Shown: positions 3,801-44,035 of the stretch, in pieces | Position numbering within the stretch: position 1 is the first letter of the stretch | Layout: each line of letters begins with the position of its first letter | NCBI GenBank assembly: GCA_051362555.1 | Contig: CM120644.1 | Coordinates: 6,084,954 to 6,148,953 of the forward strand | Source of the DNA: Lingula anatina | Taxonomy: Eukaryota > Animalia > Brachiopoda | Length of the DNA stretch: 64,000 nt | Reading direction: 5' to 3' | Made by a program: the position numbers and the translations under genes | The notes under the pieces: model-generated | Seen by the model: the letters and a program-made list of their open reading frames with translations, nothing else | The model's database searches: none | Told to the model about the DNA's origin: nothing

Positions 3801-4216
3801 TCCCCATTCACATGTAGTGCAACAGAAGTTGACCGGAAGTAAAACTACCCAACTCTCGCCCAACTCTCGTGGTCACAAGCTCATAACACAGAGGGCAATA
3901 CAAATCTCGCGGGAGTTGGCATTCCATTTTCTCTACTTCTATGTAAAAACGAACAAGAATATTCTTCATACCGAGAATCACACAAGGGCATTATCATACA
4001 GGGTTCTGGGGTCACTATTGATCTGTTTTGTCAATCTGGAACATTGTCCCTATATGTGGAAGACAAGTTATTGTACAAAATCTCTTTAATGGTGACCTAT
4101 TATAATGTCTTTTATGTGTGTCTGTTGTTCTTTGGTCGTGTTATTATCCATAACTGCACTGAGGTTTATCATCTTTTGTTTTTGAGCCACCATTTAAGGG
4201 ACGTACCCACTACCAA

Positions 4217-5413
4217 GTGTCTCAAGGCCACACATTGTTTTTGCACCAGTTATTCGCATACATACAAGAGATAAATAGTTACAAGTTGCTGACACCTTAT
4301 GTTCCTCCCGCAGTCCACACACTCAGACCAGCTTCTATGTCATGGTCTGAGGGGATTCGAAAAATCCTTTTCACATTTGGCCTTGGAGATGTGTGGCTTA
4401 GCCAATCACCTCCAAAAAACTTCACCACAATTTTCAAACAAAGACAAACTGACCACTTTACCCAAATATGCAATAGCAAACTTCAAGCCAGCAGTAAATT
4501 GTCTCTCTTCCGTATACTTAACCAAAAGTGTGAAAGGGCAACTTATGTTGATAAAATAACAAATTATGACACCTTGTCAACCCTTGCTAAACTACGTCTT
4601 AGTGACCATAAACTCCACATCGAAACTGGGCGGCACACCAGGCCAAAAACTGAAAGGTGCGACAGAATCTGTCGCCTGTGCACCCAAGGGGTAATTGAAG
4701 ATGAATACCTTTTTATATTCCAATGCCCAATGTACAAAGCAGACCGAGTCACCTTTTTTAGTAAAACCTCAATCCTAAAAGCTGATATAAGGTCACCAGA
4801 CAGTCAATTATGCCATGTATTTAACAGTGCCAACAAAGATACTTTAGTGTCCCTCTCCAACTTTATAATCAAATCATTCAAGAAAAGAAGTGAATTGGTT
4901 GCTCTGCTTGGTAACTCTTAGCATATCCCTTAAAATGTCAGTGTATGGTCCCACTGTTGTGAGAAGTGACTCGGCAGTGGGACTGAACATGGCACAATAT
5001 TTATATCTGTGTAACTTATTTACTTATCTGTCTTATGTAATTGTCATTAATAGTAATTATCTATGCCATCAAACTGGCCTTAAACAGCCATGTAAACAGC
5101 TATGTAACTGTGGTTTTAAGTTTAAACATATCACATATCCTTTTGTGTAACATGTTTATAGTATGTTTATGGTAAATTTATAATCACACCAAGGTTTATC
5201 TCATTGCTTAGATAGAATATTTTATGAGTAATTTTACTAGTACGTATGTTCATTATATAAAGATTATTTTTTCCTTCACAAATGGTTAGGCAACATAATA
5301 CCAACTAGAGAAATGGTAATGCACTAACTGTATTGTATCGTCATTAGTATATCATATTGTACAATGTCATGACAATCTATGTACCAGTACAGAAATAAAT
5401 TGAATTGAATTGA
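4217..5413 (+). mobile_element. 5'-truncated non-LTR retrotransposon (RTE-X-like C-terminus, 3' UTR and tail)
   Basis: ORF motifs LAKLRLSDHKLHIETGRH and RICRLC..IEDE..FQCPMY; ends in AATAAA followed by a (TTGAA)n tail at about 5395-5413. Confidence 0.8.
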
Positions 5414-9400: not shown

Positions 9401-12334
9401 TATGAACATTGAAAACTGATTGACAAAGAAAGGTAAAATCAATGTTGAGACCCTGTTGATCTATCAACATTGACAATTGGTTGACAAGAAAAGGTTGATT
9501 CAATGTTGAAATCCTGTTGATCTATCAACATTGAAAATTGATTGACAAAGAAAGGTTAAATCAATGTTGAGACCCTGTTGATCTATCAACATTGACAATT
9601 GTTTGACAAGAAAAGGTTGATTCAATGTTGAGATCTTGTTGATCTATCAATATTGATGGATCAACATCATCTCAACCTATCCTCAATGTTGAATCAACGT
9701 TGAGTGCCCGCTGGGTTCAAGGTATTGCGGTTTCACGGCTCCCTAAATCTTTTGACAAAGTTTTTAAGTGCCATATCCATAAACCGATGCAATATCGTAG
9801 GTGACATTGAACAGTTCAAATACGGGCATTACTCGGTGGACTTGAAGTGATGGTTATGATTGCTTAACCCGTTGTTGGTATCATTCGCTACCTCTTTGGT
9901 GGTTTTATAAGGCATGGCAATAGCGAAAATGATAAAATCTGAGTATATTTCACTTGTATGAATTTGAGGTCCTGCGTTCCCTTATTCTGACCACTTTGAT
10001 GTCAAAAACACGGAGGCGGGGGGGGGGGGGGGGGGGGGGGGGTAACCGACCTTATCAGTCTTCAAGGAAGTTGCACGGAGGGAGTTCGGCATCTACACTA
10101 GGTGCCTTGGCAAATGTCATCTAGGCTTTAGCCGATCTCGATTGCAAATTAAGATTTTTACAGGTTATTATGTTTAAGTGTTAAAACATCTCACATGTCA
10201 GTGTAAAACCTCATAACGTTATCTCATTGAAATGCAGTGTGTTTCAGATATAAAATAGGGTTCTTACCACATTTGGATTGATTGTCTGGAATGTTTCCAA
10301 GTGTGTTCAATAGAAATGCAAACATATAAGTTAGAAGGAAAAAGATTAAATAATAATCATTTGATCATGTAAAACCGACTGTCACCAAGCCATGAATAAT
10401 TATGTTAAATGCTTACATTTATAGTTAAGGACTAGCACATTAAAAAGAGTATCTCCTGTGGTCTTATTAAAAAAGAGAGAAATCATTTATTGCAACTTAA
10501 CCATTATGCTTCTTATTTGAAAATATAGTTTCTTACCGGAATCGGATCAAGACAAAGAATCTGGAATGTTTTTGAAATAAAATTAATGTTTGGTGAAAAA
10601 CAAATATTCTTGTTTGCCCTAAATGTGCATGCATATTCATTATAACTTAACACATTGATTTACAAAAATCACAATCAAAAATGTTTGTATTATGATCTAA
10701 AAAACAAAACAAATATGGTTAAACCTATTTGATCTAGGAATATGTTATTAGTTACGTTAAACCTTAAACAAATAGACTAGTTTCACCATTACACGGCATA
10801 TATGCACATGCCCACAGTTGTAAAAATTAAAAAATAAAATATATACATATATATATATATATTTTTCAAACTTACCGGATATAGTAAACATTCAAGCTGA
10901 AGGGGAAAAGGCCACGTTGTATATATATATATATAACTTTTAATTTTTGTGGTTTCATTGCATCTATATTGAACTATTTTCTCTTACAAATTTGTACTAG
11001 TAAAAAAAATTGAGGATAAAATAAGTGTCAACCATTTGAAATATCATATGAGTATCATAATAATAATTACAAATATTGACAATTATAATTTCTCTTTATG
11101 TAAACTCCTTAGCCAATCCCGAGTGCAAATCTATTTTTTACAGATAAGAATGATTCAGAGTTTAAGCCCCTGACACTTCAGTAAAATACCTAAAATATCA
11201 TCTCTTTGAAATGCAATTTGTTTCAGTTACGAAAATACGCGTTCTTACCTTATTTGGCCATGGCTTGGTTGTCTGAAATGTTCCAAGTGTTTTGGATACA
11301 TATAGTAATTCATACGTTTAAGTTAGAAGACAAAAAGATTTTACTAAAAATTTCTTTAATCATGTAAACCGAATATCATCAAACTATCATAAAAATGTGC
11401 ACATTTAGATACAAGTTCTAAAGGCCAACTTCATTTAATATCCCAGTGTTATCCCGTGCGAATTAACATAAAGAAAATCATACTCCGGCCTGTTATTTAT
11501 TGCAATAGTTATCAGTATACCTCTTATTCTGAAATATAGCTTCTTACCGGCAGTGGCCAATCACATGGAATCTGGAATGTTTTTCATTTAAAATCAATGC
11601 TTTGGAGAAAACAAATATTCTTTTTTACCCTAAATGTACATACAGATTGGCAAAAATCATAATAAAAAAGCTCAAAATGAATATGGTTAAAATCATTTGA
11701 TCTAGGAATATGTTATCAGTAATGAAAATAAGGTCTGAGTAAGAATCAAAACGAATATGGTTAAGAGTATTTGATCTGGGAATATATTATCGATTTATTT
11801 TTATCAATAATGTTAAACCCGAACAACAGACTTTAGTTTTCACCACTATACGGTATATGCACATGCCCTCAGTAAGGGTTTTCTATTCGGCTGTATCATA
11901 TTGCAAAAGCAGAGAAGAGCATCTATTTAAAAAAAAACTTACCCATGGGTATCTTGAACATGGAAGCTGAAAAGGGGAAAAGGCGAAGTTATATTTATTT
12001 ATATATTTGATGTTTTTTCTTGCTGCGGTGTTATTTTCTTCGATAGATTTATTCTGTCAATAAAACTTGAGGAACACGTGCTAAAGCTTTAAAACATCTT
12101 ATGAATATAGATATAGAAATAAAAAAAAGATTACTGCTATTTAAATCAATTCCTTTGCCGCTTTCGAGTGCAAATGTAGTTTTTTATAGATGACTTTGTT
12201 TCAGTGTTCGAGCACCTGTATAGCACCTCAAATGTTATCCCTCTGAAAAGCAGTTTGCTTCAGATATGAAAATATAGGTTCTTACCTCATTTGGGACGAT
12301 TGTCTGGATTATTAAAGTTTCCGTGTGTTTTGAA

Positions 12335-16879: not shown

Positions 16880-17640
16880 TTAATATTCAGGTTAACAGTC
16901 CGAGCCGCTGTTATTGTTTTGTTTTGCTGAGTGCTGGGGGTACCTTTGTTTTGGTACAAATATGCATGTTCCTTTCAAAGATCAGCAACGTCGATTTATT
17001 TCGACAAAGTTAATTGAATTTTTGTTGTTTATGCATGTACGTTCACCTATAAGTGGCAAATCGTTTCTTACTTCATACATGTATTTTCTGGAGAGATATA
17101 TTAAAAAAGACTGTTCCGTTTTAAATTCAGCATCATTGGGTTATTTCATTTGCCTTGTATATATTTGACACAATTGACCCAAAAGTGGCAAACCTATCTT
17201 AAGTTAAGTTAAGGAGTTATTAGCCGTTAATTACAAAGTTTCATAAAAAATATGGCGTTATTTTCCTTTATCGACGCCAAAATGTGTGAACTAGACTTTT
17301 ACGAAGAATTGCTTGCAAGGTTTTAGAGCACTAATTTGAGAAACCGGGTTTTTTTCAATTTTTACCCCAAACTCGCAATTATGACGTCACCCATATGATG
17401 GCATGCGTATATATATATATTTTTAATTTAGTAACTGAACATTGAATGTATGCACGGCAGAAAATATGGAGTTTTTTGGCAAACGCTTATATTATCTTTA
17501 AGTCGGTCACTGTAAATGATGCAAAATTGGATGTTTTTTCAATAAATATTGGATGTTGCTGTATTATTTCAAGATAGAACAGTGGAAGGGCTCTTTCCCA
17601 TATTTATGTCAATGTATTAAGCTCCGCTAGCGTTTCGTGA

Positions 17641-17713
17641 GGTTCAATAGTGTAGTGACCATCACGCTCGTCTCACACGCGAGAGGTCCTGGGTTCGAAC
17701 CCCAGTTGAACCA
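17641..17713 (+). tRNA. tRNA-Val(CAC) or tRNA-Val-derived copy
   Basis: Acceptor stem GGTTCAA/TTGAACC, anticodon arm CTCGT-CTCACAC-GCGAG, T arm CTGGG-TTCGAAC-CCCAG, T-run terminator just downstream; D-loop lacks the invariant GG. Confidence 0.75.
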
Positions 17714-18959
17714 GCTATATGTTTTTTTTACATGAAGTTTTAGGACAGGTCTGAATGTTCAGGAAATAACACAAAGAAAGTGTGCATAGATATTTTCGTC
17801 TAAATGAGCCTCGACTTATTTTAACCTTTTAAAAAGGTAGAATTGTTAAAGGCCGGACCTACTCTACATTTCTCGCGAGGCCAGCAGTATGGCGCGTGAA
17901 AATGTATCTACTACTGTACGTGCGGCGGGCTTTTCTAACTGCCTTCACAAAAGCATGTATAAAGTTTTAGCCACAATATTTAGAGAAAAAAGAAATTGCA
18001 CCAGTACTGTAAATGTTAACAGTCGCGTTTAAGGTCAGGGCGAAAGAATCTTACAGAGCAATTTTTTCTCATGCTGTGTGCTTTTAATTTCAGAAAAAAT
18101 GAAAATTTCACAAAATGCATATCGCCATTTTCTGTTTTCAATAATAATTGTTGCAAGTCAGTTTACGTTGATCATATCAAATATGTTTTTTTTTTCTTTT
18201 TTTTTTTGTGCTATCGAATTAATATATCAGTACAGTATTACCATGCATCCAGCACAACAGTTCTCTAAACCCGTTACACTTGGAACGGTGAGGTGACTTA
18301 CGTGTACACTCGTTCAATTTCTTTAAATAAATCCATATCAAATTAAATTTGTTCAGTTGGCATTGGCAGATTCATAGTGATAAAATCAACCTCTCGTTTT
18401 TCCTGAAGCCTTATAACAACATATAAAAATGGTACCGGTTAATAAAGGAACTCTGCATGCCTTTGAAAACCCCTCAGATTCAAATCTATATCCTTGAAAG
18501 TTTATTATATTTCCCAATTTATACCTTAACGACGATAAAAGACCCCTTAAATTATGTGAAATAAACGTTTATCTGAAGCGTACCTAGTGTCGCTACTGTC
18601 TTTTCAGCTTTTATAGCAGGTCGCAACGTCTGTATTACAGTGATACAGGACCGTGATACAAACATCACCCCTTTTTCCTGTCTGAAAATGAGGCCATGAA
18701 GATGAAAATCGCGAAGGCTATGTCTTTCTACTGGACTGGCCAGTCATTTAAAAACTAAATCAATGAAATTAAACGTGGAATAAGACACCAAATACAAAGG
18801 CAGGGACGGGTTGAGGCTGAGTCGTAATTGGTATAAAATTTCCCTTTAACACTGGAAAATTCATCATTGCGGATAAATTCCACGGAGAGTTCCTTTACAG
18901 ATAATTTCGCCAGATATACTTTGCAAAATGGATGGCTCGCGTGTATGCTATCCTCATAG

Positions 18960-23565: not shown

Positions 23566-23934
23566 GCTATTTTCTCTTTACATAAACTTTATACAATGAC
23601 TGCTGAGTACCGCTGAAACTAAAAGAAGGCATATGGTTGACTCCTCCCCTCCACCCCCCCCACCCCCACCCCCCCATTCTTCCCGTGTATTAGCTCACGT
23701 ATTAGAAGAGACTTGGCCTTTAGACTTTATCAGCTGGGCGTCATGTAAGGTTAGAAACAAGGACGTGAGTGATCTAAAACTGTGGCATAAATAAATTCAA
23801 GGCCAGATAACGTGCTCTTCATCGAGTTTAAGTGTAAAGTCGTGCCAAGCAATAATTCGTGATAAGGAAGAAATTAAGTTTTTTATTAAGGAAATTCAAA
23901 TTTACGGATAGGACTTTTACGCTTCACCTTACTT

Positions 23935-24425
23935 ATGAATATCAAAATAACTTGGATTTTCATCATTTTGCTGGTTTATGCATCAGCGGTGTTTGTTGGG
24001 AGCAATGTGATCCGTGAACGGAAACCTTCAACTTGTGAGTGCAATTTTTTTAAAGAATAAGTAACAAATACCCCTGTTTCAATATACAAGTGATAAGCTC
24101 TTACTTCAGGTGGGCTTTATTGATAATCCATCAAACTGAGCTGGGCAGTTAGCCTTATAAACATTATTTTTGTTATAAATATTTGATCCAAAAACTATAG
24201 TCTCGCGGGGAGATTTCATTTGGTTTTGACGGCTTAATAAATGGAAAAAACTGATCACCGTGTTACTGTATGTTATTGAAACCCCAATGAGTCACACTGT
24301 AGACGTTAGCAGGGAAATTCTGTCTGATCCAAGATTGCCGGTTGCATATTTATATATATACATAAAATAATAAACGAGGTCAACCTTATCACACACACTC
24401 ACACACATACACACACACACACACT

Positions 24426-24456
<31 letters not shown>

Positions 24457-25754
24457 TAGGAATGTATAAGACTGAGAAATGGACAACCCCCAAACTAAAG
24501 AGGCACGTGAACCACTGTGACCCCCATTTGGTCATTGTGGACATATCCAAATATTGGCTGCTGAAATCTCAGATAACACTCGAACCAAATGTCTAATTTC
24601 AGTGCTCACCCTTGGGCAAAAGCAATGGAAGATTCGATTTATGCATTTATTCCAGCTTCGAAATAAACGCGAGGTAAGCGATTTTTCGTTTTTGTTGTTT
24701 ACGTTTATACATACGTATGTTTGCTTGTGTCAATGTACATTCTTTTATCATTTAAAAATCCATTACAAATATCCCGGTAGCAATTATTGAATTAAATCGC
24801 ATTAAGGTTATTGTTTCGTCTTTTCAAAATAAGAATACCATTTTAATTTGAAATAACTGCCACCCAATTACGATTGTAACAGGTTGGCAATTGAAGGTTG
24901 TTTTCCTTTTTCAGACGAGTCCAAATCTATGGACGTTCCCCCCAAAGGTAAGTACACCTTAGCTCATTTGAAAGAAGCGCCTTATAAGACAATGTTTGGA
25001 CAACAATGTGATAACTTCCTCCGCCAAAAAGTTGTACTTTGTCAGTTTGTCCGTAAGCAACGTTATGCATTATCATAAGAGTAGCAATCCCAACAGTTGG
25101 TGAGTTGGATTCCAACCTGAAACCTTTGTGAGAAACTTCAAAACAGAAGCTCGTACATAACAATGGACTTAGAAACAGTCACTAATAGGAAGTCCATCGG
25201 AACCTGAAAATTGTTTAAGTACGTGGAAATTGGATTTAGAAAAATAAGTAAATTTTAGTCCTTTGCATGATGATTTTATGGCATGAGAGGGCATGTAGAG
25301 TGGGTTAAATGTATGAAAGGATTTCTGATAACTTTATTTATTCATTTTGTATTGATTTATTTTTATTTATCAGTATTCAATTCAATTCATTTCTGTACTG
25401 GTGCATGATTAATCATGACCTTTTGCAATATAATATAATAACAGCAAGACAATTGGTGCATTACCATTCTCTTTATTCACCTTCTTTGCATTCACCTTCT
25501 ATTCTTTGCAGATCACAATTCGAACTTTTCCACCGATTCCAAAGGTACAATGTAGGTTGTAGACGTTGTGGAAGATGCTTAAAGCCAATGTGGTTCTATA
25601 ACATCATGATACATGGCGATAAAAAATCTTAAATCAAAGTATAAAATATAGAATGCCATACTGTACGTCACAGAATGGTTGATCAGTTTCCCATTTATAT
25701 TTCCAGGTGACCATAAAGCCATGGACCATACGTTCTATAGTAAGTTGTGCTGTG

Positions 25755-25800
<46 letters not shown>

Positions 25801-28293
25801 TTGTTGTTGGTGGTGGTGGTGGTGGTGGTGGTGGTGTTTTTTTTTTTCCTTTTTTGATTCAATAATTTGATGAGGTAAAATCCTCGAGTCCTTGCAACCA
25901 TTCGTATGTGAACTGGTAAAAACGTGCAGAACACCGGTAGCTTTCGCATGTAGATCCATATGCTGAGCATTCCATGCATTTATAATCACACAAGAGCATT
26001 TAAGTTATGTAACATTTGTGAAATGGACAACATTTTTTATTTATTTCAGAAACCCATAAAACCCTGGACGGTGCCACCAAAAGTAAGTTATACCGCAAAA
26101 AAAGTCGCACGTTAAACGACCACTCGTACCTTGTGATTCAGTTTGTCATTTTGATAAACACTTTTGTACAGTCACATATATTGTCATCTTTAAATTTTCA
26201 GTTGTAGTTTGCAGAAACAAAATCGTCATTCATCACTGTTTTTTAAGTGGAGCTATTGTCGTGTACGTTTCGCAAAACTTTTCGCATTTTAAGAGCTTAA
26301 TTTCTTTCTTACCATTAGGTGACCTTTACTTTTCCACCTGAGGTAAGACATTATACATATAAAAGTATGTACACTAATAATATATCATATATTTCTTGAA
26401 AAAAAACGTAACGATACTTATTTATTATTAACAATAATGAATACTGGTTGCTGATGTCCCGAATATGAATAGATGAATGTTCTATATTATATATAACAGT
26501 ATACGATTGCTCACGATGTGACAAAGGTATATTGCCCTTAATACATGTATGTTACAACGTACAGTGTATATGAACGTGTATCAAAATTAGCTATCACGTT
26601 CAATATGTCTGTATGTATGTTCAGTGCATGCAGGAATATTGCCCAGTTTACTTGCATGCACTTTTGTTTCCATCTAATTATAGCATAAATAAATGAACTG
26701 CATATAAGATATATGAATAGGACTCTTTGCAACATGAGAGGGGGTGGATGTCTTTGGTAAACCGCCGGATGAGAGTGACTAGGGCAGAAGAAATTATCGC
26801 AAGGACTGGCGCAATTTGTGTTTTCTTATAGCCAATACTTATCCTTTACAACTCTAATGGACAAGAAAGATTAAGATGGTTAATAACATCAGGACACGTG
26901 GTAATAAAAAACTCTTACATGAAGTATAAAATACAGAATACCAAACGGTCACAGAACGGTTGATGAAACATGGTGATGGACCAGTTTCCTATTTATGTTT
27001 CTAGGTGACCATCAAGCCATGGACCATTCGTTCCATTGTGAGTTTTTTTTAAATATATATCTGATAATTCCGTGTGTGTGTGTTTGTGTCTGATTTAACT
27101 GGATAACTTTTGTTGGGTTACCACATTCTTATAAGAACATAATCAGTTAGATACTTGGTGCATATATTAATTCAGATATGTATCTTAACTCAATACAACC
27201 ATATTTTAATTAACTATAGAAAACATTGTGCTATTGGCTTGTACTATTACTATTTTTCTTGTCGTTGTTGTTTGTTGATGTTGTTTTGGTTCTTGTTCCT
27301 ACTGCTGTTGATTTCTACTCCTTTTCCGTTTTCTCAATAAATTAATGAGGCAAAAAACATTCCTCCTCGCTTGTGTATGCGAACATTCTTGTGTATGGAC
27401 TGGTAAAATCATGCAGAGTATGCATCGATAGCTTTCACATTTAAGTCTATATGCTTGGCATTCCATCCAGTTAATCACACATGGAAGTTTAAGAAATGTA
27501 ATTTTTGTGAAATGGACAACATTTCTTTATTTCAGAAACCTATTAAACCCTGGACGGTGCCACCAAAAGTAAGTCATACAGCAAAGAAAAACACACTTTA
27601 AACGAGCACTCGTTTCCAGTGATTCAATTTGATTCAATTTTTGGTAAACCGTTTTTTTTCAGTCACACATCTTATCATGTTTAAATTTGTATAAAGTTGT
27701 AGTTGTATAAACAAAATCGCAATTCATCAGTCTGGCATTTTAAAAACTTAATTTCTCTTTTACCATTAGGTGACCTTTACATTTCCACCTAAGGTAAGAC
27801 ATTATACATATAAATGTCTGTACACTAGCTGATATATTTCATGACAAAAAAAAACGTACCGATACTTATATATTTTTAACAATAATGAATACTGTTGCCG
27901 TGACAGGTGCCTTTAGAGACAGTCTATTATATTTGTGTCTTTATATTTGTGAACAATGGACACATTTGTATACTTTGTACATAAAACTACGCAGAAGTGG
28001 AGAAGCACCAGAAGTGTCGTTTATTTACTTTTGATAGTTTACTTCTAGAGAACAATCGGACTGCTTCCAACTGTAAGTAAATTCATCTTAAAAGAATACA
28101 TTTGGACCAGATTGTTTCAAATTCATATACTTAAACAAATACAATGTAAACGTTGTAATCACACCAATGCTTGTCATATTGAAATTTCAGGTAAATCTAA
28201 TCCAATCTAGATACCGATTCTGTTTGCATTCATTTACTCCCTTCTCTCCCATTGTCTATGAGATAGCTTTTGTAAACCGTTTTATAACGTGTG

Positions 28294-28324
<31 letters not shown>

Positions 28325-28475
28325 AAACAATGCCAATGCAGTGATGAACTGATGCGTGCCAATCCGGTACATTTATCCCATTAACTCATCAAACATTTGA
28401 TTTTCATTATTCTTACAGATCGTTCTGCCAACAGCCGCACCTTTACCAACATTCCCTCCGGATTTGATTGGTTAA
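23935..28475 (+). CDS. Micro-exon gene B: secreted Pro/Thr/Lys/Trp-rich cationic prepropeptide, 11 exons, 154 aa
   Basis: Exons (GT-AG): 23935-24034 MNIKITWIFIILLVYASAVFVGSNVIRERKPST; 24603-24673 LLTLGQKQWKIRFMHLFQLRNKRE; 24915-24947 TSPNLWTFPPK; 25707-25739 VTIKPWTIRSI; 26050-26082 KPIKPWTVPPK; 26319-26342 VTFTFPPE; 27005-27037 VTIKPWTIRSI; 27536-27568 KPIKPWTVPPK; 27770-27793 VTFTFPPK; 28049-28072 RTIGLLPT; 28419-28475 IVLPTAAPLPTFPPDLIG*. Signal peptide, RNKR furin-type site, AATAAA at 28588-28593. The exon-2 acceptor is ambiguous (in-frame alternative at 24573). Confidence 0.82.
25640..27900. repeat. Two tandem units (about 25640-26450 and 26920-27900), each carrying three micro-exons of gene B
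   Basis: Shared AAGTATAAAATA.AGAAT.CCA, TTTGTGAAATGGACAACATTT, GGTAAGACATTATACAT and AACAATAATGAATACTG. Confidence 0.9.
25757..25836. repeat. Compound (AAT)n(TTG)n(GGT)n microsatellite in a gene B intron
   Basis: Direct reading. Confidence 0.95.
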
Positions 28476-30272
28476 ATGGAGAGCGTGGCGGTTTTATACT
28501 TGTGGCCAATCAAACTGAATAGCAATTCCCAGTATCCCTAGTTCGAAAGAAAATATTACTTTATATTTCAAGGAGTGAAAAAAAAAGAATAAAGTGACAG
28601 ATATTGCATGTCTCCATTCAGTTAAGATGCCTCAATGGGCACTCTCTGTTTGGTGAAACATTTGTTTTTAAGTGTTTGCATTATTGTAAAACATTGATAT
28701 TGTGTTAATATATAACAAAATATAAAACATGTGGACATTTTACTACAGATCGTTGCACACCTTTAGTCCTATGTACACTTGTTTACAAACGATCACATGA
28801 CAGCTCTTAGGTGGAAATATTTCCATACTTTTGTAAGGTGGAATATTTCCATAATTTTGTAAAGTGGAAATATTTCAATACTTCACATATCTCGTTATAC
28901 CAGAGAGGCCAAGTAATATTTAAAAATTGAAAGTAAAGTAGATGGGCGAAAGCATAAGTAATGTCGAGATTAGGATATAAAAAGACTGGTGGTATGAAAA
29001 CTAGGAGGGACGAAGGCAGTGGGAATAAAGCTGATTGGAAATCTACGAATCATGCCGTTTATTTCTACTCTTTAGTCAAACAGATTATGGAACGTTGCAC
29101 CTTCCTTCGACAATTATCATATTTTGAACGAGGACAATTTTAATATAAGAGGTAGGCAAAGAGGATGAAATGATTGTTTGTTATCTGAATCGTTTCGTTT
29201 GAAACACTGTTTTGAGGAATGGAAAGGAGAATCTCCAAAACTAAGGAGGGGTGTGTTTCACACTGTGTTCCCCTTCTAGGGCTCATCCCCAATGAAGGCA
29301 TCCTTCCACGTAGATTAATATAACTACGCTGGAACTGTTGCTGAATGCACTCAGTCTAATAAATTACCCCTGGCGTTGAGCAGAATACAAAAACACTGGT
29401 GATTATAGAATGTCGTTGATATATATATATATATATGGTGCGCATTCACTTACTACAGTTAATGAAGAGGTGATGCAGGATGAGAGGGGACCTTAGAATT
29501 TAAAGGGGGGTATGTTGCCATCTCCCCGGCCCTTGTTGAGGTACCGCTGCTTAGTCCAGATAACTCACGTATTAAGCGCACATATGTTTGTTGTTTGGAC
29601 TTATTCAGCTGATGATCTTATGATAACGTCGGGAAAGAACAATAACGTAACTGATCTGAAACTGTTTTACATAAATCAGTCAAGGGCCAGAAAACGTGCA
29701 TTTCATTCAGTTGTCTTCATGAGTACGTTCTGATATTAAGAGTATACAAGGCGTTTAACTTTTAGAACTTTGTAATTTCGATTAAAGTCAAATAAGCAAA
29801 AGCAATTTTTGGCTATTAAAAGCATGGCATTTCATTAGACCGTTAATTCGGTTAATGACAATTACGTTGATTTGGTAAGAAGGGTGATACCGAATCACAG
29901 CTTTCAATGACGATATAAGAAAGAAAGAAAGAAAGAAAGAAAAAAAGAAACGACAGAAATGTCATTTGAAATGACAGCATCTGTAATGACGATGCATAAC
30001 CAACAATGCTGTAAATCTTCAAACTGGTTAATGTATAATAAAACAAGCATTAATTTGCTGCCCCTATTTTCTGGCCACTTGCAGCTAAATTTATATCTAA
30101 TATGTTGTGCATATTATCACTGTTGATATGATAGTTTCTTTACACATTATACATAATCATTGTCACCTCTTGGGGTCAGATACCGTGTACCACATTATAA
30201 AGGAGACTGGGCGCGCTATATACCTCACATGCCATTGTTCACTATTGACTTCCAATACCATGATGTGACAAT

Positions 30273-31171
30273 ATGGCCGAGACATTGGCAGCGGACTTCA
30301 CGGATAACATTTTGACATGTAGTATCTGTCTGGCAGAGTATAAGGACCCTCGAATGTTGCCATGCTACCATACATTTTGCCTTGTTTGTGTATCTAGTCA
30401 CGCAAAAAGAACCATTACTACAAAGAAGACATTCCAGTGCCCTGTTTGCCGAGAAGATGTTCAGTTTCCAGCAGGTGGACTTTCTAAATTCAAAAAGAAT
30501 TTTGCCTTTTCCAAGGCCAAAGACATAATAAACTAGCACCAAATACGAGGACATCCTTGAACTCCACCATGCCTCCTTGCAAAGTGCCTGTGACTTTGCT
30601 CAACAACTTGTGGCAGATGTGTCAAAGTGTACTCCACCAAAGGTAAACCGGTGACAACCATGGGTCAGGGTCAACTGGAAAAGCCAAGTTGTATCACAAT
30701 GAATAGACAAGGTAATGTGATGATTTTTGATGTGGAAAAATAATCCATCCTCACATTCCACGCAGGCAGTGGGTATCTCCTGAACACTATTCGACTCACT
30801 ATGTGTAAATGCCCCACTTCCATCACAGTGAACAGTGCTAAAGATAACATTGTGATATCAGACTTATGGAACTGTGTTCACGTGCTCTCACCTACTGGTG
30901 ATCAGCTATACAAATATGGTACAGAAAGCAGTGGTGTTGGCCAGCTGAGTTTTCCTAGTGGAGTGTGCACAGACAGCTATGGCCACATCTTCATTGCTGA
31001 TGGTCGTAACAATAGGATTGTAGCACTGAGTCCGCAAGGACAATTTATCAAATACATTGCCACTGAGGATGATGTGTTGAAATATCCATGGCTTTAACAA
31101 TAAATCCATCTGGCCTGCTGGTGGTGGCAGAGAGAAGGGGTATAGATAAGACATTACTGTACTTACAATAG
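30273..31171 (+). pseudogene. TRIM-NHL pseudogene (copy 1), internally deleted
   Basis: RING ORF stops at 30534-30536; two large deletions remove the B-box/coiled coil and the first NHL region; further stop and frameshift in the NHL part. Confidence 0.88.
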
Positions 31172-36138: not shown

Positions 36139-36323
36139 TAATATAGTGTGCATGTTATCACTGTTGACACGATAGTTTATCTATACATTATACATGGCCA
36201 TTGCCACCTTTTGAGGTCAGTTACCGCGTATCACACTACAAAGGGGACTGGGTGTGCTATATAGCTCACATGTGATTGTTCCACTATTGACTAAAAGACT
36301 TTCCAATGCCATGATGTGACAAT

Positions 36324-38144
36324 ATGGCAGAGGCATTGGCAGCGGCTTTCACGGATAACATTTTGACATGTAGTATCTGTCTGGAAGAGTATGAAGACCC
36401 CCGAGTGCTGCCTTGCTACCATACATTTTGCCTTGCTTGTATATCTGACCATGCCAAGGGAACTCTCACTGCAAGCAGGACATTTTCGTGCCCTGTTTGC
36501 CGAGAAGATGTCCAGTTTCCAGCCGGTGGGCTTTCTCAGTTAAAAAGGAATTTTGTCTTTTGCAAGGCCAAAGACATAATAAACCAGCAAACGGAAACAG
36601 GGTCGTCAAATAATGCACAGACTAATGTGGAAGCAGTGACACAAGCCGTTGAAAAATTGACCAACGGCTGTGAGAAACATCCTGGCAATGAACTGAAATA
36701 CTACTGTGAAGATGATGATACAGTTGTTTGTGGTGACTGTGCATTGACTGATCATTACAGGCATGGTATTTTACCTGTAGGAACAGTTGCGGATATCAAC
36801 AGGAGAAAAATCAAAACTGCCCTTGTTAACACTGTGGCAAAAGTTAACGTATTCAAAGAAGCCGCCAGAGAAGCAGCCAATGGATTTGAGGACCCCGGTA
36901 TCATGATTGCCACTATCAACAGCGTTGAAAGACAAGCCCATCATGTATGTAGATTAATTAATGCGAGGAGAGACTCATTGATATCAGACGTTAAGTTTGC
37001 CTATGATGCCAGAAATGAGCAATATAAGGCAATAAAGGACACCCTCGAACTTCACATTGCCTCCTTGCAGAGTTCCTGTGACTTTGCCCAACAACTTGTC
37101 GCAAACGGCACTGACTCTGATATCATGACACATGCAAAGTCTCTCACAGATAAACTGACAACAATGGAAAGCATACCAGTACCAACATCAGACACACCTG
37201 CAGAGATATCTTATATTCCTGGTGAAATACCTACTTCTAGACTGGAAGCCATGCTAGGACAGGTGACAGTACATTCAAAACCCCCGTTAGCCGGACGGGG
37301 AACAAATCTAAAATCATCACCGAATGTGCCTATTTTCTTAGAGAAGGCAGAATGTGTATGTTCTTTTACTGCCAAACTTAAACAGGATAAGAGAGAAGAT
37401 TTTATGTGTTGGAATTTAACCATAGATGGGCAATTTGTATATGTTGCATGTGTCATAGATATTGAAAACCTCGAAACAAATGTGCGAGTGTTCACACATG
37501 CAGGTCAGTTCTGGCGTCAAATAAGGTTAAACAAAGCAATTGATGTGGCTGTGTCACAGACTGGTAAAATGTATGTGACGTCAGAAGGCAACAAACGAGT
37601 CAGAGTGTACACCACCAATGGCATATATATAAAATCCATGGGTCAGGGTCAGCTGGAAAATCCAGGTTGTATCACACTGGACAGACAAGGCCATGTTGTG
37701 GTTTATGACGTGGACCAAAAATCTATATTTACATTCCATGCAGACACTGGAAGGCCCCTGAATACAGTTCCACTCACTTTGCCTAAATGTCCTTGTTACA
37801 TCACAGTGAATAGCGTGAATGATAACATTGTGATATCGGACTTGGACAACTGTGTCCATGTGCTGTCACCTACTGGTGATCATCTGCAGCAGAATAACGG
37901 TAGTGGTGATGGTCAGTTGAATGGATCGTCGGGGTTATGCACAGACAGCTATGGTCATATCTTCATTGCTGATGGTCGTAACAATAGGATTGTAGCAATG
38001 AGTCCACAAGGGCAGTTCATCAAGTATGTTGCCACTGAAGATGATGGATTGGTAGGGCCAAGGGGATTAGCTATCAACCCTGCTGGTCTGCTGGTGGTGG
38101 CAGGGATGGGGGGTAAAGTTAAGACATTCAAGTACTTGCAATAG
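36324..38144 (+). CDS. Intact intronless TRIM-NHL protein (RING, B-box, coiled coil, NHL repeats; TRIM2/3-like), 606 aa
   Basis: RING CSIC..PCYHTFCLAC..CPVC; B-box CEKH..YYCEDD..VCGDC..H; coiled coil; NHL repeats (GHIFIADGRNNRI, PRGLAINPAG). Confidence 0.93.
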   Translation: MAEALAAAFTDNILTCSICLEEYEDPRVLPCYHTFCLACISDHAKGTLTASRTFSCPVCREDVQFPAGGLSQLKRNFVFCKAKDIINQQTETGSSNNAQTNVEAVTQAVEKLTNGCEKHPGNELKYYCEDDDTVVCGDCALTDHYRHGILPVGTVADINRRKIKTALVNTVAKVNVFKEAAREAANGFEDPGIMIATINSVERQAHHVCRLINARRDSLISDVKFAYDARNEQYKAIKDTLELHIASLQSSCDFAQQLVANGTDSDIMTHAKSLTDKLTTMESIPVPTSDTPAEISYIPGEIPTSRLEAMLGQVTVHSKPPLAGRGTNLKSSPNVPIFLEKAECVCSFTAKLKQDKREDFMCWNLTIDGQFVYVACVIDIENLETNVRVFTHAGQFWRQIRLNKAIDVAVSQTGKMYVTSEGNKRVRVYTTNGIYIKSMGQGQLENPGCITLDRQGHVVVYDVDQKSIFTFHADTGRPLNTVPLTLPKCPCYITVNSVNDNIVISDLDNCVHVLSPTGDHLQQNNGSGDGQLNGSSGLCTDSYGHIFIADGRNNRIVAMSPQGQFIKYVATEDDGLVGPRGLAINPAGLLVVAGMGGKVKTFKYLQ

Positions 38145-39169: not shown

Positions 39170-40742
39170 TTTTTACTTCGTACCTATTGCTTCAAGCACA
39201 GCACTGCTGTTGGTGGCACAGCAGATGACTCTGAAGTTGTCGACTTTGACGTCACAATTACATAGCAAACCAAAAGGCGTCTCTTTGAAAATGCTCACGG
39301 CATTTTCTTTGATTTGCTTCTGGGCCCTAGAATCCGGGCATTCATAATCGTAGTATAAGGTCCGAACGAGGTTGCCATCTGAATTCTGATATCCTGTAAC
39401 AGTAAAGAGTACTTTGAAGATATACCCTAATGTATTACAAATACATTATTTGAATTTAAAACCAGCACGTACGAGTTCAGTCGGGCACTTGAGTGGTGGG
39501 AGCCCACATCCCTCTCCCTCCACACACGTAGTAATTTGGCACGGTTCTCATGCCGGCTGGCAAGTCGAATTCTTACGGGTTTTGGCACTGGAGTGTGCAG
39601 AACATTCCGAATCCAAAAGTGTCACAGCTGAGAGCTCCGTTGATAGATGTGGAGATCAGGGCACTTGTGGGCTGTAATGAGCACGTTTCCAAAGTTAGTT
39701 CATTTGATCAATGGTATTACCACGTGACTAATATAAGATCTATATGAAATATGACATAATCTTCGGGGATGTGAGGTCCGAGAAAAGATAAAACTGACAA
39801 ATGATGTCATCATCAATCATAAGACTGGCCGATAACGTACGTCATCACCAAGCATAACACTGACCGATTATAATGTATCAAGTAGAGTGCCCCTAGTGGT
39901 ATATGCTAAAACCTACACTCTACCAGTATATTATATAATGATCTCGAAGTTGAAAACATTACTTCGTTTCTGCATAAGACAAATTATGTTTCCGTAAGCA
40001 GTTGACGAAAGAGCAACTTTCGCGGTTTCCAGCTTCATCTCTGACGTCGTAGACTACCTTGTACCGTCCCCAGAAGAACTTCCCTGGACTAAAATTGCTG
40101 ATCACCGTCACAGGTTTGCCACTGTTGTCCGTTACCGTTGGCTGGACCCAGGACACGTGGACCTCTCTGTCCGTAGACACCACTGACACGGACGTCATAC
40201 CGGCTGGTAAGTCGAAATCGTACGGGTTCTGGCAGTGAAGAGTACAGAACACTACGAACCCAGAAGTGTAACAGCTTGCAGCTCCGTTGATAGGTGTGTG
40301 GAGATCAGGGCACATGTGGGCTGGAATGAGCAGGTTTCCACAATTATTTCATTGAACAATGCTTTTATCACATAAATGATATGAGATCTATATGAAATAT
40401 GATCTTGAAGTTGAAACATTAATTCGTTTCTGCATAAGACAAATTATGTTTTCGTAAGCAGTTGACATAAACACGGCGATTACTCACGTCCTACGTTAAG
40501 CGTGAAAGAGCAACTTGCGCTGTTTCCAGCTTCATCTCTGGCGTCGTAACTACCTTGTACCGTCCCCAGAAGAACTTTCCTGGACTAAAATTGCTGGCCA
40601 CCGTAACGGGTTTGCCACTGTTGTCCGTTACCGTTGGCTCGACCCAGGACACGTGGACCTCTCTGTCTGGAGACACCACTGGGTCAACTTTGGGGCAGGT
40701 TATGGTCGGTGGTTGGACATCTACATGGGGAGTAACAAGCAC
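39170..40742 (-). pseudogene. HYR + sushi/CCP (SVEP1/hyalin-like) gene remnant with duplicated exons
   Basis: HYR motif PPTITCP..VSWVEPTVTDNSG..F..GRYKVVYD.RDEAGN..CSF present twice (about 40490-40720 and 40000-40190); sushi-like CPDL..INGA.SC..FCTL.CQ twice; terminal exon YYDYECPDSRAQKQIK..LCNC; frameshifts and an in-frame TAA. Confidence 0.75.
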
Positions 40743-41122
40743 AAGGGAAAACTATATATTACTTTAACATATGTCCATTGAAACCCTTTCCTGTGGATGG
40801 AATATGCCCGTGTTAACAATTATATTTAAGGCTTATGGTATGTGAAGGACTAAATGGACATGTAGGGCCTACTGTACATGTAAGCTAAATTCATAGGTCC
40901 TTGTTGTAAGCAAAGGTAGAGTCAATGTTTCCGGTTTGAAAATAAGAGTAACTGCAGAACACCAAAACTACTCTTACAAATATGCACGTGGTCCAATGTA
41001 TCATCCTTAGATTCGACACTTTCTATGTAGAATAATAACATTAAGAAGCATAACGTATGCTTTTTTTAATGCCATTGTTCCACTATTGACTGGATGTCTT
41101 TCCAATGCCATGATGTGACAAT

Positions 41123-42936
41123 ATGGCCAAGGCATTGGCAGCGGCCTTCACGGATAACATTTTAACATATAGCATCTGTCTGGAAGAGTATCAGGACCCC
41201 CGCTTGCTGCCATGCTACCATACATTTTGCCTTGCTTGCATATCTGACCATGCCAAGGGAACTCTCACTACAAAGAGGACATTTCAGTGCCCTGTTTGCC
41301 GAGAAGACGTCCAGTTTCCACCCGGTGGACTCTCTGAATTGAAAAAGAATTTTGCCTTTTGTAAGGCCAAGGACATAATAAACCAGCAACAAATAGAAAG
41401 AGAGGCACCAGAAAATGTACAGACTAATGTGGAAGCAGTGGCACAGGCCAATGCACAATTGACCATCGGTTGTGAGAAACATCCTGGTAATGAACTCAAA
41501 TACTACTGTGAAGATGATGATACCGTTGTTTGTGGTGACTGTGCATTAGCAGATCATTATAGGCATGGTATTTTACCTGTAGAAGAAGTTGCAAAAAGCA
41601 ATAGAGAAAAAATTGAAAATGCCCTTGTTAAAACGCTGGCAAAAGTTAACGTATTTAAAGAGGCAGTCGCCGAGGAAACAACCAATGAATGTGAGGACTC
41701 TCGTATCAGGACAGCCACTATCAACACCATTGAGAGACAAACGCAGCATATCTGTACATTAATTAATGAGAGGAAAGAGACACTGATATCAGAAGTTAAT
41801 TCTGCTTATGATCTTAGAATGACGCAAAGAGAGGTTAACAAGGACAACCTTGAACTCCACCATGCCTCCTTGCAAAGTGTCTGTGACTTTGCCCAACAAC
41901 TTGTCGCAAATGGCACCGACTCTGATATCATGGTTCATGCAAAGTCTCTCACAAATAAACTGATAACAATGGAAAACATACCAGTACCAACACCAGACAC
42001 AACTGCAGAGATTTCTTATAGTCCTGGTAAGACATCTACTGCTGGACTGGAAGCCATGTTAGGGCAGGTGAAAGTACAGTCAAACCCCCCATCAGCTAGG
42101 CAGGGAACACATCCAAAATCAAGACCCAGTCTTCCCGTTTTCTTAGAGAAGGCAGAATGTGTACATTCCTTCACTGCTAAACTGAAATATGAAATGGAAA
42201 ATGTTATCATATGGGGGGTAGCCACAGATGAGCAATATATATATATGCTAGGGGTTATAGAAATGACAAAATAATAGTATTCACACATGCAGGTCACTTC
42301 ATGTCTGACATAAAATTAAAGAAACCTTTTGATGTAGCTGTGTCACAAACTGGTCGCATGTATATAACATCAATAGGTGACAGATGTGTCAAAGTGTACT
42401 CCACCAAAGGTAAACCGGTGACAACCATGGGAAAGGGTCAACTGGAAAAGCCAAGTTGTATCACAATGAATAGATAAGGTAATGTGATGATTTTTGATGT
42501 GGAAAAAGAATCCATCCTCACATTCCACGCAGGCAGTGGGCATCTCCTGAACACTATTCGACTCACTATGTGTAAATCCCCCACTTTCATCACAGTGAAC
42601 AGGGCTAATGATAACATTGTGATATCAGACTTGGGCAACTGTGTACATGTGCTGTCACCTACTGGTGATCAGCTGTACCAGTATGGCACAGAGGGCAGCG
42701 GTGTTGGCCAGAGTTTACCAGGTGGAGTGTGCACAGACAGCTATGGTGACATATTCATTGCTGATGGTCGTAACCATAGGATTGTAGCACTGAGTCCACA
42801 AGGACAGTTAATCAAATGCATTGCCACTGAGGATGATGGGTTGAAACACCCCATGGCATTAGCTATTAACCCTGCAGGCCTGCTGGTGGTGGCAGAGAGA
42901 AGGGGTATAGTTAAGACATTCCTGTACTTACAATAG
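41123..42936 (+). pseudogene. TRIM-NHL copy 3, disrupted (383-aa RING/B-box/coiled-coil ORF)
   Basis: First RING Cys changed to Tyr (TYSIC); frameshift near the (AT)n at about 42240; in-frame TAA at 42475-42477; remainder homologous to the NHL C-terminus. Confidence 0.87.
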
Positions 42937-43186
42937 ATACACTTCACACAAAATACTAAGTACACTGACAATGACGGTATGCCGTTTAGAACAAGAATCA
43001 AGACTGTTGGTGGTAGCAGAGTCAAACAATAATTAATTTCAGGTATTTTAGAATTTACAATTATAAGAATAATTAATTTCGGGTATTATGTTGAAATATT
43101 ATTATAGTACTGTGTGATAAATTGTAAATAACAAAATTAAATAAGAATCACCTGGAACTATTTTAAAAGACATGTAGCAGATAATT

Positions 43187-44035
43187 TACGAAATTTGCAA
43201 ATTTGGCAAAACACTTCATCTACCACAAGCAATAGACCAGTTGGCTGACTGGGTCAAACAAAACAAGATGAAACTTAATGTAGGGAAGACTAAGTCGATG
43301 GACATAGATTTTACCAAGAACTGTAATCTTACAATACCAACATTGGAAATAGATGGTGAACGTGTAGAAAAGGTCAAAAAGTTTAAGTTACTTGGTGTTA
43401 TTTTAACCCCAAACCTCAAGTGGGCTGAACACATCCAAATCATGTATGCTAAGGCATGTTTAAAGCTCTTTTATCTCAGACAGCTAAAGAGGGCAAAACT
43501 GGACATACAAGATTTATTAACTATCTACCAGACTGTAATAAGATCAGTTTTAGAATATGCCTGTCCAGTATGGGGACCAGGTCTGACTGCTGAGCAATCT
43601 GATTGTCTAGAGTCAGTTCAAAGTCAGTCAAAAGAGAGCCTTAAGGATTATTTGCCCTGGTCTCAGTTATGATGATGCCTTAAAAGTTTGTAACATTAAC
43701 ACCCTAGACAAACGTAGACATTTGCTATCAGAGGTTTTATACAAAATTAAAAAATTGTGAAAAGTTGGGACATTTATTGCCTGAAAGAAACACCCGCTCT
43801 TTACGAAACAACACCAAATTTTTACAACCAAAAGTGAAGACGGAACGTTTAAAAAAGTCCTCTATTAATTACTGCCTTTTAAACTTGAAGTAATTTATGG
43901 AAGCCTTTTTAATTTGTAGTATTTTAAGAATAATTTATTGTTTTATAATTTAAAGTTTATTGTCAATTTTCTTTTAAACATTATTGTACAACTTCAACCT
44001 TAGGGTTGCAATTTTATCTAATAAATTATTATATT
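43187..44035 (+). mobile_element. 5'-truncated CR1/L2-group LINE fragment
   Basis: MKLNVGKTKSM..KFKLLGV..LKWAEHI..IRSVLEYACPVW (RT thumb region); ends with AATAAA and a short TTA tail; absent behind TRIM copy 2. Confidence 0.8.

What the first reader, a model, noticed from the sequence alone, without database searches (positions are those of the whole stretch)
23935..28475. Hidden micro-exon gene B: signal peptide, RNKR furin site and a 98-aa Pro-rich cationic repeat peptide
Seen: eight phase-0 micro-exons of 24 or 33 nt encoding KPWT/FPP(K) motifs; by my count the region after RNKR has 23 Pro, 13 Lys+Arg versus 3 acidic residues, 5 Trp, no Cys, and ends in Gly. Established: R-X-K-R is a furin consensus, terminal Gly is the amide donor, and linear Pro-rich cationic peptides are a known antimicrobial class in invertebrates. 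Inference: a new Pro-rich antimicrobial-like precursor whose repeat units are each one exon; a Thr-glycosylated adhesive or matrix role is an alternative.
Basis: partly seen in the sequence, partly recalled or inferred. Interest (0 to 1): 0.9.

Follow-up and report, generated by a model that had tools for sequence, protein, structure and literature searches.

The report
Brachiopod micro-exon secreted proline-rich protein gene
DNA likely from a lamp shell (Lingula) holds a predicted twelve-exon gene in which nine tiny exons of 24 or 33 bases each spell one short repeat unit; the protein, whose near twin is already listed in a database under a borrowed name, is predicted to be secreted, trimmed and sugar-coated, and is more likely a sticky surface coat than an antibiotic peptide.

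Summary
It has 12 exons (498 nt, 165 aa) with nine phase-0 micro-exons, not eight. The spliced product matches Lingula anatina XP_013402169.1 ('adhesive plaque matrix protein') without gaps at 151 of 165 residues. Exons 5-7 were duplicated with their introns as exons 8-10 and differ by 7 synonymous changes and 1 non-synonymous change (p=1.5e-4). No other true relative was found among 1.84 billion representatives. No reads were laid on the junctions.

The signal peptide, furin-type RNKR site and terminal Gly are conserved. The 109-aa mature chain fits proline-rich antimicrobial peptides poorly: Lys outweighs Arg (11:4), and there is no Pro-Arg-Pro, no conserved site to release the units, no acidic propiece and no hypervariability. 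It has 12 of 21 Ser/Thr with Pro at +3 and four Lys-Pro-Trp-Thr motifs.

Best reading (45%): an O-glycosylated, Dopa-free Lys/Trp coating or matrix protein. Mucosal defence peptide: 30%. Function is untested, and neither shell-proteome list I saw contains it. A second micro-exon gene lies 8 kb upstream on the other strand.

The parts
23935..24034 (+). Exon 1 (100 nt coding, ends in phase 1): signal peptide (cleavage inferred after Ala18 or Ser23) and start of the basic propiece
   Evidence: matches P0001 residues 1-33 with 2 differences
24603..24673 (+). Exon 2 (71 nt, phase 1 to 0): rest of the propiece, convertase site and first mature residue
   Evidence: acceptor 24603 preferred over 24573 and 24656 because only it gives the gap-free match to P0001
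24659..24670 (+). RNKR, the only R-x-[K/R]-R furin-type site in the protein (residues 53-56)
   Evidence: identical in P0001
24915..24947 (+). Exon 3, 33-nt phase-0 micro-exon (Trp-Thr and Thr-x-Pro-Pro unit)
25512..25544 (+). Exon 4, 33-nt phase-0 micro-exon (Thr-x-Pro-Pro unit; weakest donor, GTACAA)
25707..25739 (+). Exon 5, 33-nt phase-0 micro-exon (KPWT unit), copy 1
26050..26082 (+). Exon 6, 33-nt phase-0 micro-exon (KPWT plus Pro-Pro-Lys unit), copy 1
26319..26342 (+). Exon 7, 24-nt phase-0 micro-exon (Thr-Phe-Pro-Pro unit), copy 1
27005..27037 (+). Exon 8, 33-nt micro-exon, duplicate of exon 5 (4 synonymous, 0 non-synonymous changes)
27536..27568 (+). Exon 9, 33-nt micro-exon, duplicate of exon 6 (2 synonymous, 0 non-synonymous)
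27770..27793 (+). Exon 10, 24-nt micro-exon, duplicate of exon 7 (1 synonymous, 1 non-synonymous)
28049..28072 (+).
   Evidence: 7 of 8 residues match P0001
28419..28475 (+). Exon 12, coding part: 18 residues ending in Gly (28470-28472) and TAA
28588..28593 (+). First AATAAA after the stop, candidate polyadenylation signal (a second at 29024)
   Evidence: use inferred
25598..26451 (+). First copy of the tandemly duplicated three-exon block (exons 5-7 with introns)
   Evidence: blastn 73-74% to the second copy
26883..27898 (+). Second copy of the duplicated block (exons 8-10 with introns)

Best explanation
This is a predicted 12-exon gene, likely of Lingula, whose product is predicted to be secreted, cut by a furin-type enzyme after RNKR and O-glycosylated on its Thr-x-Pro-Pro repeats, and which likely acts as one intact 12-kDa Dopa-free coating or matrix protein that would stick to itself and to surfaces through Lys-Trp and hydrophobic contacts. 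Shown here: exon layout and reading frame (sequence, duplicate-exon selection test, gap-free match to a database protein); growth by tandem duplication of exon-plus-intron blocks; conservation of every Pro, Lys, Trp and Phe of the mature chain; enrichment of Thr/Ser-x-x-Pro. Inferred: secretion, cleavage, amidation at the terminal Gly, O-GalNAc addition, an extended unfolded chain, and a site of action on an epithelial surface (mucus, cuticle, pedicle, setal follicle or periostracum) rather than in the mineralised shell.
For: 151 of 165 identity without gaps to XP_013402169.1. Duplicated exons: 7 synonymous and 1 non-synonymous change, pS 0.318, pN 0.015, Fisher p=1.5e-4; 7 of 8 changes at codon position 3; stops in both other frames. 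Mature chain kept in the relative: Pro 26/26, Lys 11/11, Trp 5/5, Phe 7/7, Arg 2/4. Pro at +3 follows 12 of 21 Ser/Thr (shuffle mean 4.9, p=1e-4) and [ST]xPP occurs 7 times (mean 1.2; reached by 0 of 10000 shuffles); that Pro at +3 favours GalNAc transfer is recalled, not read here. All 5 Trp are followed by Thr and 4 follow Lys-Pro. A Dopa-poor precedent exists: mussel pvfp-1 has extensive Thr O-glycosylation and modified Trp (PMC4275877 passages) and coheres by Trp-Lys cation-pi contacts (PMC12721214 passages). That its repeat holds the same KPWT stretch is recalled; the primary papers were not held. The head-to-head neighbour encodes a secreted TSP1 plus C-type lectin protein with a chitin-binding-like Cys pattern, domain types listed among Lingula shell matrix proteins (PMC13425148 section 8). 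The AlphaFold single-sequence model leaves residues 79-157 at pLDDT under 50 with no secondary structure (weak, no alignment).
Against: The accession is absent from the 2026 Lingula shell-proteome supplement (0 hits; control accession 12 hits). None of the 14 novel shell proteins in the 2015 table matches in length or composition. There is no Tyr for Dopa, no W-x-x-W/C site for C-mannosylation and no Cys or collagen segment for cross-linking. A cleaved propiece and a conserved terminal Gly look more like a bioactive peptide precursor than a glue protein. At about 38% Ile/Val/Phe/Leu/Trp the chain is more hydrophobic than a typical mucin (composition; comparison recalled). The only ESM Atlas family lead was apidaecin, not an adhesive (0.80). 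The database name is probably an automatic transfer and is not counted as evidence. There are no expression data at all.
Confidence: 0.45

Rival explanations
1. A mucosal host-defence polypeptide: the furin-released, amidated, cationic Pro/Thr/Trp-rich chain, or fragments cut from it after Lys by extracellular proteases, kills or traps microbes, as mussel myticalins do on gills.
For: Signal-pro-mature layout with terminal Gly conserved; net charge about +11.6, pI 11.2; Pro at 24% lies in the 14-49% range of proline-rich AMPs (PMC11678341 passage); myticalin D and E subfamilies are rich in Pro, Thr, Trp and Arg (PMC12294457 passages); drosocin and lebocin are Thr-O-glycosylated, so glycosylation does not exclude it; top Atlas hit apidaecin at 0.80; lectin and TRIM-NHL genes nearby.
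Against: No PRP or RP; Arg 4% and half not conserved; 109 aa against 17-47 aa for myticalins and 19-76 aa for the peptides seen; no conserved spacer or dibasic site between units, unlike multi-copy apidaecin precursors (the one internal KR is absent from P0001); propiece basic, not acidic; no hypervariable mature region and only one copy in the database. The Atlas score is at a level a third of shuffled proteins reach, and the mature part alone gave no usable hit.
Confidence: 0.3
2. A splice-diversified glycoprotein like schistosome MEGs or SmPoMucs: skipping of the nine symmetric exons (512 in-frame combinations) makes a pool of variants used in recognition or decoying.
For: All nine internal exons are symmetric, and exons 4, 5 and 8 have the weaker donors; the exon-plus-intron unit is tandemly duplicated as in SmPoMuc (PMC2576457 passages).
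Against: Only one full-length form is in the protein collection (cluster of 1, name without an isoform tag; 1 of 32 candidates); the repeats are under purifying selection, whereas MEGs show raised dN/dS (PMC4350168 passages).
Confidence: 0.08
3. Another secreted role: a gamete-coat, gut peritrophic-lining or signalling peptide, or the active part is the basic helical propiece (residues about 34-56) rather than the repeats.
For: The propiece is as conserved as the rest (3/39 changes), is basic and is modelled as a helix (residues 34-54). Lingula expresses chitin synthases in the gut (PMC4595640 passage).
Against: The hydrophobic moment of the propiece is modest (0.43-0.48); the selection signal was measured on the repeats; no direct evidence for any of these sites.
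Confidence: 0.15
4. Not a working gene: chance splice-like sites or a decayed copy.
Against: Intact 165-codon frame, 11 of 11 GT-AG introns, gap-free match to a diverged relative, synonymous excess p=1.5e-4, 10 candidates against at most 3 in 100 shuffles.
Confidence: 0.02

Closest known systems
Lingula anatina XP_013402169.1 / UniRef100_A0A1S3IX93, 'adhesive plaque matrix protein' (P0001)
   Same: 165 aa, 151 identical, no gaps; same signal, RNKR, repeat order and terminal Gly.
   Different: 14 substitutions, 6 of them in exons 3-5 (6/33 against 3/75 in exons 6-12, p=0.02). Orthologue or recent paralogue could not be decided. Neither accession appears in any held paper (0 hits).
Perna viridis foot protein pvfp-1 and mussel fp-1 coatings (review passages PMC4275877, PMC12721214, PMC9418609, PMC7971044; primary papers not held)
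   Same: Secreted, Dopa-poor, Lys/Trp/Pro/Thr tandem repeats; Thr O-glycosylation shown there and predicted here; a shared KPWT stretch (recalled, unchecked).
   Different: No W-x-x-W site, no collagen trimer segment, much shorter, cleaved basic propiece; no pvfp-1 hit, so likeness is compositional or convergent.
Myticalins and modiocalins; insect proline-rich AMPs (PMC5577615, PMC12294457, PMC11678341, passages)
   Same: Linear, Cys-free, cationic, Pro-rich, convertase-processed, often amidated; D and E subfamilies contain Thr and Trp.
   Different: Myticalins have three exons with the mature peptide in one exon, an acidic C-terminal propiece, 17-47 aa, are Arg-rich and form a hypervariable family restricted to Mytiloida. 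Here the propiece is N-terminal and basic, Lys dominates, the chain is 109 aa over eleven exons and a single record exists.
Schistosome micro-exon genes (MEGs) and SmPoMuc polymorphic mucins (bioRxiv 2023.06.21.545858, PMC4350168, PMC4413821, PMC2576457, passages)
   Same: Signal peptide, a run of short symmetric exons, no known domain; as in SmPoMuc, one exon gives one repeat and exon-plus-intron units are duplicated in tandem.
   Different: Free-living brachiopod; furin site; purifying rather than accelerated evolution; no evidence of skipping; no sequence likeness. PMC4350168 says MEGs appear restricted to platyhelminths.

Membership tests
Invertebrate proline-rich antimicrobial peptides | Pro 14-49%, cationic, linear | tested here: met
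   Pro 24%, charge +11.6, no Cys (range)
Invertebrate proline-rich antimicrobial peptides | Arg-rich, often with Pro-Arg-Pro motifs | tested here: not met
   Arg 4 of 109, 0 PRP, 0 RP; 2 of 4 Arg not kept in P0001
Invertebrate proline-rich antimicrobial peptides | Short mature peptide, or multi-copy precursor with conserved spacers that release each copy | tested here: not met
   109-aa chain; the only internal dibasic pair is absent from P0001
Invertebrate proline-rich antimicrobial peptides | Antimicrobial activity; ribosome or DnaK targeting | not testable with these tools
   needs an assay
Myticalins/modiocalins | Three exons, mature peptide within exon 2, acidic C-terminal extension after a dibasic site | tested here: not met
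   12 exons, N-terminal basic propiece, no C-terminal extension (definition)
Mussel fp-1 adhesive/coating proteins (Mefp-1 type) | Tyr/Dopa-rich decapeptide repeats | tested here: not met
   0 Tyr in the mature chain, 1 in P0001
pvfp-1 type (Dopa-poor, Trp-based) | Lys/Trp/Pro/Thr-rich tandem repeats | tested here: met
   4 KPWT, 5 of 5 Trp followed by Thr; the pvfp-1 repeat itself is recalled, not read
pvfp-1 type (Dopa-poor, Trp-based) | W-x-x-W/C site for Trp C-mannosylation; C-terminal collagen trimer segment | tested here: not met
   0 sites; no collagen family hit; features (abstract start of PMC8433626)
pvfp-1 type (Dopa-poor, Trp-based) | Thr O-glycosylation, hydroxy-Pro/Trp and cohesion of films | not testable with these tools
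   sequons enriched, modification not shown
Schistosome MEGs | Signal peptide plus many short symmetric internal exons, no known domain | tested here: met
   nine exons of 24/33 nt code 90 of 165 residues; best Pfam E 0.11
Schistosome MEGs | Variant pool made by exon skipping | tested here: inconclusive
   one form in the protein collection; no reads examined
Schistosome MEGs | Raised dN/dS; homology within flatworm MEG families | tested here: not met
   pN/pS 0.015/0.318 between duplicated exons; no flatworm hit
Lingula shell matrix proteins | Detected in shell extracts by mass spectrometry | tested here: not met
   absent from the 2026 supplement and from 2015 Table 26 and the part of Table 25 seen; glycosylated peptides or missing gene models could hide it

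The most novel reading that the evidence does not exclude
Lingula has independently evolved a small cluster of MEG-like micro-exon genes (gene B and the Cys/Pro-rich gene A) that encode a Dopa-free, furin-activated Lys/Trp/Thr-glycan underwater coat or glue. It is co-expressed from a shared promoter with a chitin-binding/TSP1/lectin linker (gene C) that ties it to chitin, and its repeat number is tuned by exon duplication and skipping. This would be a brachiopod adhesive chemistry convergent with green-mussel pvfp-1.
Probability: 0.12. Interest if true: 0.75.

Novelty: new variant of a known kind. Interest (0 to 1): 0.42.

Why it matters
If the coating reading holds, it gives a concrete candidate for a brachiopod surface or adhesive protein that works without Dopa, a second natural case beside pvfp-1, and small enough (12 kDa) to synthesise and test. 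If the defence reading holds, it would be a Lys-based proline-rich defence peptide, unlike the Arg-based ones, from a phylum for which the search listing showed no paper on such peptides. Either way it documents one-exon-per-repeat gene growth under purifying selection in a free-living lophotrochozoan, a design described mainly from parasitic flatworms. Interest is tempered: the protein already has a database record, the function is untested, and unchecked notes of this scan suggest secreted micro-exon genes recur in many eukaryotes.

Tried and rejected
No whole genome is held for the window, so paralogues elsewhere could not be counted. No read-level test of splicing or expression was obtained.

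Pfam on P0001: best E 0.11, on the signal stretch. PDB sequences: only antibody signal peptides, E 0.19 or worse. ESM Atlas: whole protein 0.80 to apidaecin (lead only); mature part no usable hit; structure rows TM 0.36 or less. HMMER over 1.84 billion representatives: 5 hits at E<=0.001, P0001 plus four long unrelated repeat proteins (bacterial Cna B, stick insect, snail, fungus; E 5e-5 to 4e-4), rejected as low-complexity matches. AlphaFold without alignment: mean pLDDT 52.7, pTM 0.21, too poor for a fold search, so none was run.

Alternative exon 2 acceptors (24573, 24656) rejected by the match to P0001. Homology of gene A to gene B: not supported (protein score 42 against shuffle mean 40, p=0.38; no blastn hit). 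Common origin of all nine micro-exons from one 33-nt unit: plausible but only partly shown (outside the three duplicate pairs, 16 of 33 pairs had p<0.05 and 7 had p<0.01 against codon shuffles, uncorrected). A galactose-type QPD motif in the gene C lectin: does not align with the canonical position, not used. Exact look-up of the window's TRIM-NHL protein: not in the collection, so orthologue versus paralogue stays open. The bacterial promoter scan is irrelevant to this eukaryote and gave chance-level counts. Earlier-findings look-ups by place, sequence and a first word set gave nothing. Composition was not compared numerically with published AMP sequences.
Full report
VERDICT. The gene is very likely real and slightly longer than reported. 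It is a Lingula-type orphan with a database twin. A glycosylated coating or matrix role (45%) fits somewhat better than an antimicrobial role (30%). Function, expression and splicing were not tested on reads or in the laboratory.

1. OBSERVATION. The region 23935-28475 assembles into 12 exons: 23935-24034, 24603-24673, nine micro-exons (24915-24947, 25512-25544, 25707-25739, 26050-26082, 26319-26342, 27005-27037, 27536-27568, 27770-27793, 28049-28072) and 28419-28475. That is 498 nt and 165 codons plus stop, with 11 of 11 introns GT-AG and 162-662 nt long. Six micro-exons are 33 nt and three are 24 nt, all phase 0. With a hand-set splice matrix the + strand of 24600-28000 gives 10 symmetric stop-free candidates, the - strand 0, and 100 dinucleotide shuffles a mean of 0.26 with a maximum of 3.

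2. INDEPENDENT SUPPORT. A search with exon 1 read through to its first stop (41 aa) found one protein among 3 candidates: P0001, Lingula anatina XP_013402169.1, named 'adhesive plaque matrix protein', 165 aa. It matches the spliced product without gaps at 151 of 165 residues, which fixes the exon 2 acceptor and revealed exon 11. The organism is therefore inferred to be Lingula or a close relative. Whether P0001 is the orthologue in another population or a recent paralogue is open. L. anatina populations are reported to differ strongly (genetic distance 0.0759; PMC13425148 section 6), so either is possible. I could not see whether that record rests on transcripts.

Exons 5-7 and 8-10 are a tandem duplicate including introns. 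Introns 5/8 and 6/9 are 80% and 83% alike over aligned columns. The 90 coding bases differ at 8 positions: 7 synonymous, 1 non-synonymous, 7 at third positions; pS 0.318, pN 0.015, Fisher p=1.5e-4; both other frames contain stops. This shows selection on this reading frame.

3. RANGE. P0001 retrieved only itself among 32 candidates of 90-289 aa and, over 1,835,955,588 representatives, itself plus four unrelated low-complexity proteins. Pfam, PDB and ESM Atlas gave no family. Neither accession occurs in the held papers, and no held paper has both 'Lingula' and 'microexon' (the hyphenated spelling was not searched with Lingula). Subscription papers are largely not held.

4. ANATOMY. The N-terminus is hydrophobic; cleavage after Ala18 or Ser23 is inferred from the recalled -3/-1 rule, with no predictor run. 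Residues 18-56 form a basic propiece (9 Lys+Arg, 1 acidic), modelled as a helix, ending in the only R-x-[K/R]-R site. The mature chain has 109 aa, 12.3 kDa, pI 11.2, charge about +11.6: Pro 26, Thr 18, Ile 14, Lys 11, Phe 7, Val 7, Leu 6, Trp 5, Arg 4, no Cys, no Tyr, no N-glycan site, and ends in Gly, which PAM would turn into an amide (mechanism as in PMC12294457). Each micro-exon gives one unit: most begin with a short beta-branched run and carry KPWT and/or Thr-x-Pro-Pro. Pro at +3 follows 12 of 21 Ser/Thr (shuffle mean 4.9, p=1e-4). In P0001 all Pro, Lys, Trp and Phe are kept but only 2 of 4 Arg. Divergence is 2/17 in the signal bin, 3/39 in the propiece bin and 9/109 in the mature chain, with 6 of the 9 in exons 3-5 (p=0.02).

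5. HOW IT MOST LIKELY WORKS. Inferred chain of events: secretion; cleavage after RNKR in the late secretory pathway; O-GalNAc on many Thr (enzyme preference recalled; the paper sought was not held); possible amidation; release of one extended chain, since no conserved internal convertase site exists. Such a chain would coat wet, anionic surfaces (chitin-glycosaminoglycan cuticle, mucus, sediment) by Lys charge and cohere by Lys-Trp/Phe cation-pi and hydrophobic contacts, as reported for Dopa-poor pvfp-1. The head-to-head neighbour, gene C (minus strand, 21999-18960, 310 aa: signal, six-Cys chitin-binding-like segment that Pfam did not call, TSP1 E 5e-10, C-type lectin E 2e-4), is an extracellular-matrix type protein. 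Adjacency is weak evidence. Against this reading: absence from both shell-proteome lists seen, no Dopa or C-mannosylation site, and a propiece plus terminal Gly that look like a peptide precursor. The defence rival keeps 30% because myticalin D and E are Pro/Thr/Trp-rich mucosal peptides and some insect peptides are Thr-glycosylated, but it fails on Arg/PRP content, length, unit release, propiece charge and hypervariability. The two roles are not exclusive.

6. COMPARISON. It works most like an fp-1/pvfp-1-type repeat coating protein and is built like a schistosome MEG or SmPoMuc gene. It fails at least one tested defining feature of each family and is not filed under any.

7. SURROUNDINGS. 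Gene A (minus strand, 15607 to about 9900) is a second predicted micro-exon gene: signal exon, a possible 2-nt exon, nine phase-0 exons of 18-24 nt in three related blocks of three, about 105 aa with 10 Cys and 18 Pro. It has no database candidate (weak) and no significant likeness to gene B (p=0.38).

8. PAPERS, AND WHAT I SAW. PMC13425148: abstract, sections 6 and 8, supplement part 1 of 132 and term searches of the whole supplement. PMC4595640: passages, supplement term searches and part 9 of 24 (Table 26 whole, Table 25 without its first rows). PMC4275877, PMC12294457, PMC5577615, bioRxiv 2023.06.21.545858, PMC7971044, PMC9418609, PMC12721214, PMC11678341, PMC12669706, PMC4413821, PMC4350168, PMC2576457: passages only. 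PMC8433626: start of abstract in a listing. PMC2749108 and PMC3482130 (primary pvfp-1 papers): not held, nothing seen. Unread supplement pages and figures, and the closed bioRxiv supplements, could bear on the shell-proteome and MEG claims.

9. SCORES. Real gene about 97%. Novelty: new variant of a known kind. Interest 0.42.

Noticed in passing
window 15607-9888, minus strand: Gene A, a second predicted micro-exon gene: exons 15607-15535, 15504-15503, 12940-12923, 12587-12567, 12303-12286, 11966-11943, 11571-11548, 11272-11249, 10896-10876, 10560-10537, 10285-10268 and an uncertain last exon (9938-9888). About 105 aa, signal peptide, 10 Cys, 18 Pro; three related three-exon blocks with alike intron flanks. 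No database candidate.
   Followed up: partly
window 15534-15503, minus strand: In gene A a strong acceptor and donor frame a possible 2-nt exon (15504-15503) only 30 nt behind the exon 1 donor. Splicing out the 30 nt and reading through them both keep the frame.
   Followed up: partly
window 21999-18960, minus strand: Gene C, four exons (21999-21936, 21624-21250, 20715-20545, 19282-18960), 310 aa: signal, six-Cys chitin-binding-like segment, TSP1, C-type lectin. Head to head with gene B, ATGs 1.9 kb apart.
   Followed up: partly
window 30000-55000, plus strand: Tandem cluster of TRIM-NHL genes (RING, B-box, NHL): one intact ORF at 36315-38144, frameshifted or truncated copies near 30200-31100, 41114-42936 and 52952-54749, within segmental duplicates 77-91% alike.
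   Followed up: partly
window 6886-7532 and 9308-9656: Tandem arrays (109-nt and 61/122-nt periods) built from a TCAACGTTGA-like palindromic word; related pieces at 51750-51900.
   Followed up: no
window 4163-4921, 43178-43672, 61887-63386: ORF fragments that look like non-LTR retrotransposon reverse-transcriptase remains (judged by eye).
   Followed up: no
window 39959-40348 and 57475-57822, minus strand: An HYR-domain fragment (E 2e-11) and a calpain domain III fragment (E 4e-5).
   Followed up: no
window 17627-17720: A stretch that looks by eye like a tRNA-derived element, with A- and B-box-like words; not scanned.
   Followed up: no
window 23730-23819: An 85-90 nt dispersed element just upstream of the gene B start, also at 33636 and 50965 (78-79% alike).
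   Followed up: no
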